Shown here in pieces: positions 19,842 to 22,177 of a stretch of 23,274 nucleotides of DNA. Every line of letters starts with the position of its first letter. Positions within the stretch are counted from its first letter, which is position 1. Below the pieces are notes generated by a model. That model did no database searches. It was not told the origin of the DNA and saw only the letters and a program-made list of their open reading frames with translations. A program made the translations under genes and the position numbers. Source of the DNA: a virus (lineage: Duplodnaviria > Heunggongvirae > Uroviricota > Caudoviricetes); IMG/VR virus record IMGVR_UViG_2571042372_000002. One strand, written 5' to 3'.

Positions 19842-21902
19842 ATGGCAGTACAGATTTCAGGCGTGCTGAAAGACGGTGCAGGAAAACCGATACAGAACTG
19901 CACCATTCAGCTCAAAGCAAAACGTAACAGCACCACGGTTGTGGTGAACACGGTGGCCTCAGAAAATCCGGATGAAGCCGGACGTTACAGCATGGATGTC
20001 GAGTATGGCCAGTACAGCGTTATCCTGCTGGTTGAAGGTTTTCCGCCTTCACATGCCGGGGCCATCACCGTGTATGAGGATTCTAAGCCGGGGACATTGA
20101 ATGATTTTCTGGGCGCTGCAACAGAAGATGATGTTCGTCCGGAGGCACTGTATCGTTTTGAAAAGATGGTGGAAGAGGTGGCACGCAACGCTGAAGCCGC
20201 CTCTCAGAGCGCAGCGGCAGCAAAGAAATCAGAAACAGCAGCGGCATCGTCCAGGAATGCGGCGAAAACATCAGAGACGAATGCAGGTAACAGCGCGAAA
20301 GCGGCAGCTTCTTCAAAAACAGCCGCACAAAACGCAGCAACAGCGGCAGAACGTTCAGAGACAAATGCCCGTGCGTCAGAAGAAGCCTCCGCAGACAGTG
20401 AAGAGGCTTCCCGCCGTAATGCAGAGTCAGCCGCTGAAAATGCCGGAGTCGCCACCACAAAAGCGCGGGAGGCCGCAGCAGACGCAACAAAGGCCGGGCA
20501 GAAAAAGGATGAGGCTCTGTCGGCAGCGACACGGGCTGAAAAGGCGGCAGACCGCGCAGAAGTCGCAGCGGAAGTGACTGCAGAGCCCTATGCGAATATA
20601 GTGCCGCCGCTGCCTGATGTGTGGATACCGTTTAACGATTCACTGGATATGATTGCGGGTTTTTCTCCGGGCTATAAAAAAATAGCTATTGGTGACGATG
20701 TGGTTCAGGTCGCCAGTGATAAACAGGTTAATTTCAGTCGCGCATCAACGGCAACATATATCAACAAATCTGGCGAACTGAAAACGGCGGAAATTAATGA
20801 GCCGCGATTTGAGTGTGATGGCCTGCTTATTGAGGGACAAAGAACGAACTACATGCTCAATTCGGAAAGTCCAGCCAGCTGGGGGAAGTCATCAAACATG
20901 GATGTGCCCGAAACCGGGACAGATAGTTTTGGTTTTACTTATGGAAAGTTTGTCTGCAACGATTCTCTGGTTGGGCAAACTTCGGCTATTAATATGGCAT
21001 CAATTGCTGCAACAAAGTCAGTTGATGTCTCAGGCGATAACAAGTACGTGACAACCTCATGCCGTTTTAAAACAGAACGACAGGTAAGGTTACGTATACG
21101 GTTTGATAAGTATGATGGTAGTGCAACAACTTTTCTTGGCGATGCGTACATTGATACGCAAACGCTTGAAATTAATATGACAGGTGGGGCTGCCGGCAGA
21201 ATTACGGCACGAGTCAGGAAGGATAAGACCACAGGCTGGATTTTTGCAGAGGCAACGATTCAGGCAATTGATGGTGAGTTAAAAATAGGCTCTCAGATAC
21301 AGTATTCTCCTGAGCGGGGTGGGGCAACAGTATCTGGTGACTATATTTATCTTGCCACCCCACAAGTAGAGAATGGGCCGTGTGTATCATCATTTATTAT
21401 TTCAGGAGGCAGCGCAACGACAAGAGCCAGTGATTTGGTTAGTATCCCCACCAGAAATAATCTTTATAAGTTACCATTTACTTTTTTACTTGAGATTCAT
21501 AAAAACTGGGATATTGCACCAAACGCCGCACCCCGCGTGTGGGATATAGCAGCAGCCAATACCGGGCAATCAGCAATTGCAGCAATCAACAGAGGTAGTG
21601 GTAAGTTATATATGAGTCTGTCAAACCCTTCAGGCTTGTATGTTAATAGCGCAGCGACAGATGTATTTGCAGAGAAAACCACATTTGGATGTATTGCAAA
21701 AGCTGATGGTCACTTTCATGTGGTGACAAATGGTAAAGCGGTTAATGAAGTTTATTGTGAATATAATGGTGTGACCGCTGATAAAAATATCCGATTTGGA
21801 GGGCAGACGAATACTGGAGAACGACATCTGTTTGGCCATATTCGCAATTTCCGCATATGGCATAAAGAATTAAATGACAGGCAATTAAAAGAGGTCGTAT
21901 GA
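19842..21902 (+). CDS. stf: side tail fibre protein (lambda Stf-like N-terminus, Ala/Ser/Glu-rich shaft, divergent AT-rich C-terminal putative receptor-binding domain)
   Basis: GGAG SD and ATG at 19842. N-terminal ~90 aa MAVQISGVLKDGAGKPIQNCTIQLKAKRNSTTVVVNTV...GRYSMDVEYGQYSVIL are near-identical to lambda Stf as recalled. Residues about 115-245 are a low-complexity A/S/E/T-rich repeat. The C-terminal ~440 aa is encoded by visibly AT-rich DNA and is unlike lambda Stf. Confidence 0.85.
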   Translation: MAVQISGVLKDGAGKPIQNCTIQLKAKRNSTTVVVNTVASENPDEAGRYSMDVEYGQYSVILLVEGFPPSHAGAITVYEDSKPGTLNDFLGAATEDDVRPEALYRFEKMVEEVARNAEAASQSAAAAKKSETAAASSRNAAKTSETNAGNSAKAAASSKTAAQNAATAAERSETNARASEEASADSEEASRRNAESAAENAGVATTKAREAAADATKAGQKKDEALSAATRAEKAADRAEVAAEVTAEPYANIVPPLPDVWIPFNDSLDMIAGFSPGYKKIAIGDDVVQVASDKQVNFSRASTATYINKSGELKTAEINEPRFECDGLLIEGQRTNYMLNSESPASWGKSSNMDVPETGTDSFGFTYGKFVCNDSLVGQTSAINMASIAATKSVDVSGDNKYVTTSCRFKTERQVRLRIRFDKYDGSATTFLGDAYIDTQTLEINMTGGAAGRITARVRKDKTTGWIFAEATIQAIDGELKIGSQIQYSPERGGATVSGDYIYLATPQVENGPCVSSFIISGGSATTRASDLVSIPTRNNLYKLPFTFLLEIHKNWDIAPNAAPRVWDIAAANTGQSAIAAINRGSGKLYMSLSNPSGLYVNSAATDVFAEKTTFGCIAKADGHFHVVTNGKAVNEVYCEYNGVTADKNIRFGGQTNTGERHLFGHIRNFRIWHKELNDRQLKEVV

Positions 21903-22177
21903 AAGATTTAACTTTGAAGTTTCATGACAAACTGCAGTTTAAGGCCTTCCTGTCATCTCTTGACTGGGAGGAGGATGAAGACCTCCAGAATAAACTGTTA
22001 GTCGATGAAATTGGTTTCACCTACACAGAAACAGGGGTAACAGAAGAGGGAGAACCTGTCTGTGTCCGGAATGACGGTTATTTTGTCAACATTCGCATTC
22101 TTGATGACTTGTTTGATGTTTCTGTATTCTCTGATTATGTCGTGGAGCTGGAAACACCGCTTCGGGAATGGAGCTGA
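21899..22177 (+). CDS. hypothetical small acidic protein (92 aa), translationally coupled to the tail fibre gene; possible fibre accessory/chaperone or moron
   Basis: ATG 21899 overlaps the stf stop (ATGA) with AGAGG upstream. AT-rich like the distal stf module. Highly acidic (many D/E), no TM segment. No homolog recognised. Confidence 0.5.
   Translation: MKDLTLKFHDKLQFKAFLSSLDWEEDEDLQNKLLVDEIGFTYTETGVTEEGEPVCVRNDGYFVNIRILDDLFDVSVFSDYVVELETPLREWS

What the first reader, a model, noticed from the sequence alone, without database searches (positions are those of the whole stretch)
21899..22177. Small acidic ORF translationally coupled to the tail fibre gene
ATGA start/stop overlap with stf, an AGAGG SD and the same AT-rich composition as the distal fibre module suggest it was co-acquired and is co-expressed with the receptor-binding domain. 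It is not recognisable as a lambda Tfa-type assembly protein. Candidates are a novel fibre chaperone or adaptor, or an unrelated moron such as an immunity or anti-defence factor.
Basis: inference. Interest (0 to 1): 0.55.

Follow-up and report, generated by a model that had tools for sequence, protein, structure and literature searches.

The report
Conserved small partner of side-tail-fibre tip
The 92-codon ORF is a real, conserved, uncharacterised phage gene that always sits, translationally coupled, directly behind tail fibres ending in a lectin-like (LamG) domain, so it is almost certainly a fibre accessory protein (chaperone or joint) and not a stray moron.

Summary
ORF 21899-22177 overlaps the stf stop (ATGA), has an AGAGG Shine-Dalgarno 4 nt upstream, encodes a 92-aa protein of pI 4.1, and has the AT-rich composition of the distal fibre (43% GC against 54% for the window). 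The window is a phage-21-like lambdoid prophage. The ORF is CPT_21_23, "hypothetical protein", PHROG 1361, function unknown.

In every locus examined, a family member directly follows a fibre whose distal part is a GTA-head-spike-fibre-like domain plus a C-terminal LamG domain. This covers lambdoid prophages, T5-like, T1-like, Dhillonvirus, Queuovirinae, rV5-like myoviruses and metagenomic prophages of 32-59% GC. The start nearly always overlaps or abuts the fibre stop.

The ORF persists under purifying selection where no second fibre follows. It does not co-vary with the receptor-binding bulk. It does co-vary with the last 45 aa of the fibre and with the first 20 aa of a second fibre when one is present.

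Best reading: a dedicated fibre-end accessory protein, most likely an assembly chaperone. A virion joint or adaptor is the close rival. It is a new family within a known functional kind.

The parts
19842..21902 (+). Side tail fibre gene stf (an alternative GTG start lies at 19836). It has an N-terminal anchor, an Ala-rich shaft and then the distal module.
   Evidence: ORF list. Pfam phage_tail_N over aa 3-133, E 1e-68. Phage 21 annotation CPT_21_22 'side tail fiber'.
20589..21902 (+). AT-rich distal fibre module, from about aa 252 to 688. It comprises a GTA-head-spike-fibre-like domain (NCBIfam hit aa 331-531) and a C-terminal LamG/ConA-like domain (Pfam hit aa 562-683). The last 150 aa are basic, pI 9.2.
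   Evidence: NCBIfam GTA_spike_fiber E 1e-14. PDB 6TB9 Rcc01080 E 6e-10. Laminin_G_3 E 5e-5, below Pfam's cut-off. GC 43.5%. Charge. The same module stands alone as a 416-aa protein in L098.
21890..21894 (+). Shine-Dalgarno-like AGAGG inside the last stf codons, 4 nt upstream of the ORF's ATG.
   Evidence: Sequence. Purine-rich GGAG/GAGG motifs lie at the same place in homologous junctions.
21899..21902 (+). ATGA start/stop overlap between stf and the small ORF, giving translational coupling.
   Evidence: Sequence. Overlap or abutment is conserved in 88 of 91 loci.
21899..22177 (+). The finding: a 92-aa acidic cytoplasmic protein, PHROG 1361, identical to phage 21 CPT_21_23. Predicted alpha/beta fold in the order strand, helix, helix, four strands, short helix.
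22190..22483 (+). Next gene of the same operon: a 97-aa membrane protein with two transmembrane segments (PHROG 1443) and an SD GGAGG at 22180-22184. It closes lambdoid fibre operons and is not part of the fibre/small-ORF pair in lytic phages.

Best explanation
The ORF encodes a dedicated accessory protein of one class of phage fibre. That class has a distal module made of a GTA-head-spike-fibre-like domain followed by a C-terminal LamG (galectin-like) domain.

Proposed mechanism:
- Ribosomes finishing stf re-initiate on it (ATGA coupling), so it is made in roughly equimolar amounts next to the nascent fibre tip.
- The strongly acidic protein (net charge -14) binds the conserved, basic C-terminal end of the fibre, roughly the last 45 residues of the LamG domain.
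- It most likely acts there as an assembly or stabilisation chaperone.
- It fills the position that Tfa fills behind lambda stf. In allelic fibres of T5-like and rV5-like phages, that role is taken by a C-terminal S74 intramolecular chaperone domain within the fibre protein itself.

What is shown: the gene is real, the strict synteny and coupling, purifying selection, the opposite charges of the two proteins, and the pattern of co-inheritance.

What is inferred: expression, physical binding, chaperone activity, and whether the protein leaves the fibre or stays in the virion.
For: 1. Strict pairing. In all 84 first-round loci a family member directly follows a fibre with homologous middle and C-terminal domains.

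2. The pairing holds in phages from other groups:
- IrisVonRoten, MatMar and KarlBarth.
- JenP1, 2G7b and SA126VB.
- rV5-like EmilHeitz, KarlJaspers and SP15.
- Jahat, phiG7, NBEco002 and PhiR55_1.
- Distant metagenomic members of 32-59% GC.

3. Coupling is conserved: ATGA, GTGA, TAATG or TAAAATG.

4. The gene does not depend on a second fibre.
- 124 loci have fibre, small ORF, membrane protein, with no fibre B.
- dN/dS is 0.13-0.41 in those loci.
- pN is 0.23 against pS 0.88 between the two B-less lineages.

5. Allelic replacement.
- rV5 gp41 ends in an S74 intramolecular chaperone and has no small ORF.
- The EmilHeitz/LL12 allele lacks that domain and ends in LamG plus a family member (PMC7229145).
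- Phage 21 has no tfa.

6. Charge complementarity.
- Small proteins carry net -9 to -18 and pair with LamG ends of mostly net +3 to +8.
- The one clade with a near-neutral small protein (SA126VB, SP15) has a non-basic LamG end.

7. Co-inheritance with the last 20-45 aa of the fibre is r 0.78, against 0.49 for the rest of LamG.

8. Other properties.
- The AF2 model is a confident single domain.
- The sequence shows no N-terminal hydrophobic stretch suggestive of a signal peptide (no signal-peptide predictor was run).
- There is no defence-library hit.
Against: - There is no direct evidence of expression, binding or chaperone activity.
- LamG folds usually fold on their own (general knowledge).
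- The protein does not co-vary with the variable receptor-binding bulk of the fibre: 93-96% identity beside 36-45% identity. Tip-specific chaperones such as Tfa usually do co-vary.
- Its strongest covariation (r 0.89) is with the first 20 residues of the downstream fibre B, which fits a structural joint better.
- The charge correlation is weak and the pairs are not phylogenetically independent: Pearson -0.39 but Spearman +0.25, not significant, with exceptions L053 and L090.
- In L098, the first of two tandem LamG-ended proteins has no small ORF of its own.
Confidence: 0.45

Rival explanations
1. Structural joint or adaptor. [quoted passage not shown] Together with the fibre's last 45 residues or so, it forms the socket for the conserved N-terminal peptide, M(V/A/T)T.T.IP.DIT.LK, of a second distal fibre B. 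The gene order fibre A, small ORF, fibre B would then mirror the physical order. In phage 21 and its relatives fibre B has been lost, and the protein merely caps the fibre.
For: - Every lytic siphovirus sampled, and 19 lambdoid loci, carry a fibre B about 10 nt after the small ORF. All these B proteins share the N-terminal peptide.
- The subtype of the first 20 B residues follows the small-ORF subtype (r 0.89), while the rest of B does not (r about 0.5).
- B carries its own S74 chaperone, so what it needs is a docking site and not a folding helper.
- Humolli et al. 2025 model IrisVonRoten Gp24 as attached to the proximal fibre Gp22. They do not say what makes the joint and do not assign gp23 a role (PMC11990801).
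- The B peptide differs from the phiEco32 gp15 N-terminus, which Golomidova et al. 2016 report is shared by DT57C LtfB (PMC4728585). A different socket is therefore expected.
Against: - The gene is kept intact under purifying selection in two diverged lambdoid lineages, in rV5-like myoviruses and in L098, none of which has a fibre B next to it.
- The covariation with B1-20 may be plain linkage, since that segment lies within 70 nt of the ORF's stop. The equally close last 20 aa of fibre A give r 0.78.
- The protein was not among the eight virion proteins detected for vB_Eco_mar004NP2. Fibre B was not detected either, so this is weak.
Confidence: 0.3
2. Cytoplasmic mask. The acidic protein occupies the basic, glycan-binding face of the LamG lectin domain. 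It would hold until the fibre joins the tail or the cell lyses, preventing premature binding to host polyanions or envelope precursors. It is then released. This is a special case of an accessory partner, without a folding role.
For: Opposite charges of the two partners, and their joint loss in the SA126VB/SP15 clade. Stoichiometric coupling. No co-variation with the variable parts of the domain is required under this model.
Against: - No evidence shows that the LamG domain binds anything.
- If the masked face were the receptor-binding face, the mask should co-vary with it, and it does not.
- The only support is the charge argument, which is weak.
Confidence: 0.1
3. Unrelated moron, meaning an immunity, exclusion or anti-defence factor that merely rides on the late transcript behind the fibre gene.
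For: - It lies at the edge of the accessory (b) region, next to a membrane protein of unknown role and the sitABCD moron.
Against: - In every locus fetched it lies downstream of this fibre type, in 91 loci plus later samples. In two or three loci an IS insertion or contig end disrupts the adjacency.
- It is present inside the structural operons of strictly lytic T5-like, T1-like, Dhillonvirus, Queuovirinae and rV5-like phages.
- It has no PADLOC hit.
- Start/stop coupling to the fibre is conserved at 25-30% protein identity.
Confidence: 0.05
4. Not a functional protein. The ORF would be a chance reading frame, or only a conserved DNA linker that guides recombination between fibre modules.
For: Recombination breakpoints do fall at the junction and near codon 17. 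One relative has a premature stop (L039).
Against: - pN is far below pS.
- The family is conserved at protein level down to about 25% identity, across hosts of 32-59% GC.
- AF2 pLDDT is 90.
- The reading frame is intact in 90 of 91 loci.
Confidence: 0.02

Closest known systems
Lambda Tfa / P2 gpG / Mu gpU tail fibre assembly proteins (Pfam PF02413, Caudo_TAP)
   Same: Encoded immediately downstream of the side or tail fibre gene and co-expressed with it. Presumed to act on the fibre's C-terminal end. Mu Tfa can stay bound to the tip (general knowledge).
   Different: - No sequence match.
- Half the size: 92 aa against about 175-200 aa.
- Predicted fold not found among known chaperones.
- The partner is a LamG lectin-like domain, not a beta-helical tip.
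- It does not co-vary with the variable tip.
C-terminal intramolecular chaperone domain (Peptidase_S74, PF13884) of T5 pb1, K1F endosialidase, rV5 gp41 and DT57C LtfA/LtfB
   Same: It occupies the equivalent place at the end of allelic fibres. rV5 gp41 (S74 domain, no small ORF) contrasts with the EmilHeitz/LL12 allele (LamG plus small ORF) (PMC7229145).
   Different: It is a separate polypeptide. No fusion to a fibre was seen among the listed hits of an HMM search of 1.8 billion representative proteins. It has no S74 signature, and no autoproteolysis is implied.
Branched-fibre joints: DT57C LtfA-LtfB, phiEco32 gp14-gp15, and anchor-branch receptor-binding-protein systems of Klebsiella phages
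   Same: A proximal fibre carries a second fibre whose short conserved N-terminal peptide is the docking element (PMC4728585; PMC11990801).
   Different: Those joints need no third small protein. The phiEco32 gp15 N-terminus, which PMC4728585 reports is shared by DT57C LtfB, is unrelated to the peptide seen here, and phiEco32 gp14 shows no similarity to this fibre class.
T4 long-tail-fibre hinge proteins gp35 and gp36
   Same: Small extra proteins encoded between the proximal and distal fibre genes, with gene order mirroring the physical order (general knowledge). This is an analogy for the joint hypothesis.
   Different: They are much larger proteins with no homology. The analogy comes from memory and was not tested here.
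PHROG 1361 (and 18574) / FIG00639828 'hypothetical protein'
   Same: The ORF is a full-length member: E 8e-42, residues 1-91 of a 92-position profile.
   Different: The family carries no functional annotation. Only IrisVonRoten bas32_0023 is labelled 'tail fiber protein', apparently because of its position.

Membership tests
PHROG 1361 (unknown function) | Full-length HMM match | tested here: met
   E 8.1e-42, 142 bits, residues 1-91 on profile positions 1-91 of 92.
Small-ORF family defined here (partner of LamG-ended fibres) | Located directly 3' of a fibre gene ending in a StfM+LamG module, with start overlapping or within a few nt of the fibre stop | tested here: met
   ATGA at 21899-21902. 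The same arrangement occurs in 88 of 91 loci and in all later samples.
Small-ORF family defined here (partner of LamG-ended fibres) | Conserved motifs M[KR]D..L.F at the N-terminus, [DE][IV][IV]G, G[YW][FHY]VN[IVL]R, and a C-terminal P.R.W | tested here: met
   MKDLTLKF, DEIG, GYFVNIR and PLREWS are present. Invariant columns come from alignments A1 and A2, supported by distant members.
Lambda/P2/Mu Tfa-type tail fibre assembly proteins (PF02413) | Sequence match to the Caudo_TAP profile | tested here: not met
   Pfam scan at E up to 1 gives only a sub-threshold LUD_dom hit. NCBIfam gives none.
Lambda/P2/Mu Tfa-type tail fibre assembly proteins (PF02413) | Gene immediately downstream of, and co-expressed with, the fibre gene | tested here: met
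Lambda/P2/Mu Tfa-type tail fibre assembly proteins (PF02413) | Required for folding or trimerisation of the fibre tip | not testable with these tools
   Needs genetics or biochemistry.
Intramolecular chaperone (Peptidase_S74, PF13884) | S74 domain signature, fused to the fibre C-terminus | tested here: not met
   No PF13884 hit in the ORF or in stf. The domain is present in the downstream fibre B of relatives.
T4 gp38-type adhesin or chaperone | Match to the corresponding Pfam families, or structural similarity | tested here: not met
Known anti-phage defence proteins (PADLOC) | Match to a defence-system model | tested here: not met
   0 families at E up to 1. No library of anti-defence proteins was available.
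Branched-fibre adaptor (virion joint between two fibres) | Presence in the virion and contact with both fibres | not testable with these tools
   Only indirect evidence: covariation with the first 20 aa of fibre B, r 0.89. Published virion proteomes were too shallow to decide.

The most novel reading that the evidence does not exclude
The small protein may be the core of a portable plug-and-socket joint. The block consisting of the last 45 aa or so of a LamG-ended fibre, the small protein, and the first 20 aa or so of a second fibre would be inherited as one unit. That would let any distal receptor-binding fibre be hung on any proximal fibre, across siphoviruses and myoviruses. The small protein would be a virion subunit that clamps the two trimers together and caps the fibre where no second fibre exists.
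Probability: 0.3. Interest if true: 0.6.

Novelty: new variant of a known kind. Interest (0 to 1): 0.45.

Why it matters
- Spread. This fibre type and its small partner are widespread. The ORF plus its downstream neighbour is found at 80% coverage or more in 1127 of 5426 complete E. coli genomes. Family members occur in T5-like, T1-like, Dhillonvirus, Queuovirinae and rV5-like phages that are used as models and as therapy candidates.
- Engineering. Host-range engineering by swapping fibre modules usually fails when the cognate accessory protein is left behind. Knowing that LamG-ended fibres come with an obligatory 90-aa partner tells engineers what to carry along. Natural breakpoints lie at the fibre/ORF junction and after residue 20 or so of the second fibre.
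- Annotation. About 77 protein clusters currently labelled 'hypothetical' get a testable function.
- Open question. If the joint reading is right, it would explain how the second fibres of phages such as Bas32 are attached, which the published models leave open.

Tried and rejected
- Profile libraries. Pfam, NCBIfam and PADLOC gave no usable hit. PHROGs gave only families of unknown function.
- Solved structures by sequence. Nothing was found with the single protein or with the profile.
- Long-protein hits. The long proteins hit in several stretches that were fetched from the exhaustive HMM search (P0070, P0093, P0100, P0106) are repeat proteins of TPR-like or other kinds. They are spurious.
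- Complex prediction.
- Literature. Neither BASEL paper nor either DT57C paper describes the protein. The same holds for the LL5/LL12, SIA3lw, aquatic coliphage, rV5 and lambda-vector papers. The Bas32 text mentions 'Gp23' once, apparently as a slip for the proximal fibre Gp22.
- Virion proteomes. The mar004NP2 study (8 proteins) and the SIA3lw study (gel bands of 19 kDa and above) are too shallow to say whether the protein is in particles.
- DT57C/phiEco32 joint. Rejected: the phiEco32 gp15 N-terminus, which PMC4728585 reports is shared by DT57C LtfB, is unrelated to the peptide seen here, and phiEco32 gp14 shows no similarity to this fibre class.
- Allele-specific co-evolution with the receptor-binding domain. 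Rejected.
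Full report
**1. What is in the window**

The window is a lambdoid prophage close to phage 21. It is 97.6% identical to phage 21 over 95% of its length and 97.8% identical to PhiR57_1. It runs about 590 nt to the left of the phage 21 cos end, so it is a prophage copy.

The stretch 19836-22600 is 100% identical to phage 21, OL657228.1. In that record the ORF is CPT_21_23, 'hypothetical protein'. It lies between the side tail fibre gene (CPT_21_22) and a 'putative membrane protein' (CPT_21_24). The sitDCBA operon follows on the other strand.

**2. The observation**

- ATG at 21899-21901 overlaps the stf stop TGA at 21900-21902.
- AGAGG lies at 21890-21894.
- The ORF ends at 22177.

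The product has 92 aa, pI 4.1, and 22 acidic against 8 basic residues. Its N-terminus has no hydrophobic stretch that would suggest a signal peptide, though no predictor was run.

GC content is 42.7%, close to the 43.5% of distal stf. By contrast, proximal stf has 54.9%, J has 55.6% and the next ORF has 53.1%. No promoter-like or terminator-like site separates stf from the ORF. The only convincing terminator-like hairpin on the + strand lies upstream of stf, at 19802-19821.

**3. It is a real gene**

- It matches PHROG 1361 over its full length, E 8e-42.
- tblastn finds it in 145 phage records.
- The word-indexed protein search found 48 clusters, all unnamed or 'hypothetical'.
- An exhaustive HMM search of 1.84 billion representatives found 77 clusters. 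Nearly all are 85-110 aa stand-alone proteins. The long multi-stretch hits that were fetched are repeat proteins and are spurious.
- AF2 with a 21-sequence alignment gives mean pLDDT 90.2. The fold runs strand, helix, helix, four strands, short helix.
- Against the phage 21 copy, dN/dS is 0.13-0.41 among close relatives. Between the two diverged lambdoid lineages pN is 0.23 while pS is saturated at 0.88.
- One relative (L039) carries a premature stop.

**4. No known family or fold**

**5. The fibre it follows**

Stf has four parts:
- an N-terminal prophage tail fibre anchor (aa 3-133);
- an Ala-rich shaft;
- a domain related to the Rhodobacter GTA head spike fibre (NCBIfam aa 331-531; PDB 6TB9 Rcc01080, E 6e-10);
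- a C-terminal LamG/ConA-like domain (aa 562-683).

Humolli et al. 2025 describe the homologous C-terminal domain of IrisVonRoten Gp22 as a 'galectin-like domain' protruding from the end of the proximal fibre (PMC11990801).

**6. Synteny, the key result**

In all 84 loci of the first round, a family member lies directly behind a fibre with homologous middle and C-terminal domains. The same holds in every other group sampled:

| Group | Phages or loci |
|---|---|
| T5-like | IrisVonRoten, SP15, NBEco002 |
| T1-like (Drexlerviridae) | MatMar, KarlJaspers, Jahat |
| Dhillonvirus | KarlBarth |
| Queuovirinae | JenP1, SA126VB, phiG7 |
| Other lambdoids | 2G7b, PhiR55_1 |
| rV5-like myovirus | EmilHeitz (110-aa member; HMM E 5e-18 against the nine small proteins compared) |
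| Distant metagenomic or prophage members, 32-59% GC, fibre only 26-31% identical | L094, L098, L100 (in L099 only a 140-aa upstream fragment was available, with no Pfam or BLAST match) |

The LamG end is found by tblastn in 205 phage records, against 145 for the small ORF. The sampled records outside the listed small-ORF hits all proved to carry a diverged family member.

Junction types in 91 loci are ATGA 51, GTGA 31, TAATG 4 and TAAAATG 2. In the other 3 no upstream fibre stop was found, because of an insertion sequence or a contig end. A purine-rich SD-like motif sits in the last fibre codons at every junction inspected except that of L099.

**7. What comes after it**

Three arrangements exist:

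| Arrangement | Where found |
|---|---|
| Fibre A, small ORF, membrane protein ORF97 | 124 loci, all lambdoid, including this window |
| Fibre A, small ORF, fibre B, ORF97 | 19 lambdoid loci, e.g. 2G7b |
| Fibre A, small ORF, fibre B | lytic siphoviruses |

In rV5-like phages and in L098, unrelated genes follow.

Fibre B proteins end in an S74 intramolecular chaperone domain. They share a 16-20-aa N-terminal peptide, M(V/A/T)T.T.IP.DIT.LK. This peptide is unrelated to the phiEco32 gp15 N-terminus. PMC4728585 reports that DT57C LtfB shares that N-terminus.

The small ORF is therefore tied to fibre A and not to fibre B or ORF97. It persists under purifying selection where B is absent.

**8. Mosaic structure**

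Among lambdoid relatives the distal fibre can be only 36-45% identical while the small ORF is 91-96% identical and ORF97 about 100% identical.

Nucleotide identity to the window jumps from 55-80% to 100% near 21949, which is codon 17 of the ORF, in the L040 type. In the L033 type the jump falls at about 21899. The receptor-binding part is thus exchanged without the small ORF, and the ORF cannot be an allele-specific partner of that part.

Across 26 unique loci that have fibre B, pairwise identity of the small protein correlates as follows:

| Segment compared | r |
|---|---|
| First 20 aa of fibre B | 0.89 |
| Last 20-45 aa of fibre A | 0.78 |
| Middle domain of fibre A | 0.54 |
| Rest of fibre B | about 0.5 |
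| Rest of the LamG domain | 0.49 |

The inherited unit is therefore the end of A, the small ORF, and the start of B. This pattern fits either plain linkage or co-adaptation of interacting parts.

**9. Charge**

The small proteins are strongly acidic, net -9 to -18. The last 150 aa of their fibres are mostly basic, net +3 to +8 and pI about 9.

In the one clade where the small protein is near neutral (SA126VB 0, SP15 -2), the fibre end is not basic either (-1 and -4). The trend is suggestive only. Pearson r is -0.39 but Spearman is +0.25 and not significant, the pairs are not independent, and L053 and L090 are exceptions.

**10. Allelic context**

rV5 gp41 ends in an S74 intramolecular chaperone domain and has no small ORF after it. 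The EmilHeitz/LL12 allele of the same fibre lacks that domain and ends in LamG plus a family member (PMC7229145).

T5 pb1 and DT57C LtfA/LtfB also end in S74 domains (PMC4728585). Lambda stf is followed by tfa, and phage 21 has none. In this fibre class the small ORF therefore sits where the folding helper sits in other fibre classes.

**11. Interpretation**

Shown:
- the gene is real and conserved;
- it is strictly paired with, and translationally coupled to, one fibre class;
- it does not depend on fibre B or on ORF97;
- it is inherited as a block with the conserved fibre end.

Inferred: it binds that end. I rank an assembly or stabilisation chaperone first, at about 0.45. The reasons are its position, the coupling, its small acidic cytoplasmic nature, its retention without fibre B, and the allelic swap with chaperone-bearing ends.

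A virion-retained joint or cap that also docks fibre B is a close second, at about 0.3. The reasons are the covariation with the B peptide and the gene order, and the fact that B has its own chaperone. The two are not exclusive, since some Tfa proteins stay on the fibre.

A cytoplasmic mask of a basic lectin face gets about 0.1. An unrelated moron (about 0.05) and a non-gene (about 0.02) are disfavoured.

**12. Literature**

None of the papers read describes the protein. In IrisVonRoten it is annotated 'tail fiber protein', apparently because of its position. The 2025 BASEL paper models Gp24 on Gp22 without assigning gp23 a role. The published virion proteomes are too shallow to decide whether it is in particles.

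**13. Verdict**

The 'co-acquired with the receptor-binding domain' idea holds only over deep time. The protein belongs to an uncharacterised family within a familiar functional class, fibre accessory proteins.

It is of moderate interest. It is widespread, being present with ORF97 in 1127 of 5426 complete E. coli genomes. It is relevant to fibre engineering, and it may be the missing joint of a modular branched-fibre system.

Noticed in passing
window 22190-22483 (+): A 97-aa protein with two transmembrane segments (PHROG 1443, function unknown) and its own SD closes lambdoid fibre operons. It follows either the small ORF or a second fibre. It is absent from lytic phages. In many E. coli genomes it follows other kinds of tail fibre gene. 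It may be a lysogenic-conversion or exclusion protein.
   Followed up: partly
window 22575-23274 (-), running off the end: sitD, the last gene of a sitABCD Mn/Fe ABC transporter carried as a moron in the b region. Phage 21 and several gut lambdoid phages have the same arrangement.
   Followed up: partly
L087 4792-5829; L002 4789-6513; L003 4792-5487; L092 4301-6049: Second fibres encoded after the small ORF share a 16-20-aa N-terminal peptide, M(V/A/T)T.T.IP.DIT.LK. Its subtype follows the subtype of the small ORF and not the rest of the fibre (r 0.89). It looks like a docking peptide.
   Followed up: yes
L093 (rV5) 22200-24001 versus L090 (EmilHeitz) 1-4357: Alleles of the same rV5-type lateral fibre end in one of two ways. 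One ends in an S74 intramolecular chaperone domain with no small ORF. The other ends in a LamG domain followed by a 110-aa member of the small-ORF family.
   Followed up: partly
L086 (phage 4A7) 3417-5833; also L026: Three transposase genes (an insertion sequence) are inserted between a truncated stf and the small ORF in 4A7 and in L026. Search matches suggest the same insertion in 4C10, 1W and 3W. The side fibre appears dispensable for these isolates.
   Followed up: no
L039 around 5001-5276: One prophage copy of the small ORF has a premature stop at codon 11. It is the only broken copy among 91 loci.
   Followed up: no
L098 1691-5297: In a prophage of 59% GC, two LamG-ended proteins lie in tandem. 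The first is 679 aa with an anchor. The second is 416 aa and consists of the distal module only. Only the second is followed by the small ORF, and lysis genes come next.
   Followed up: partly
window 21899-21950 compared with L040 and L033: Recombination breakpoints between fibre alleles fall exactly at the stf/ORF junction or near codon 17 of the small ORF. The 5' end of the ORF acts as a module boundary.
   Followed up: yes
window 19802-19821 (+): A strong terminator-like hairpin lies between J and stf and is annotated as a terminator in phage 21. Late transcription must read through it to express stf and the small ORF.
   Followed up: no
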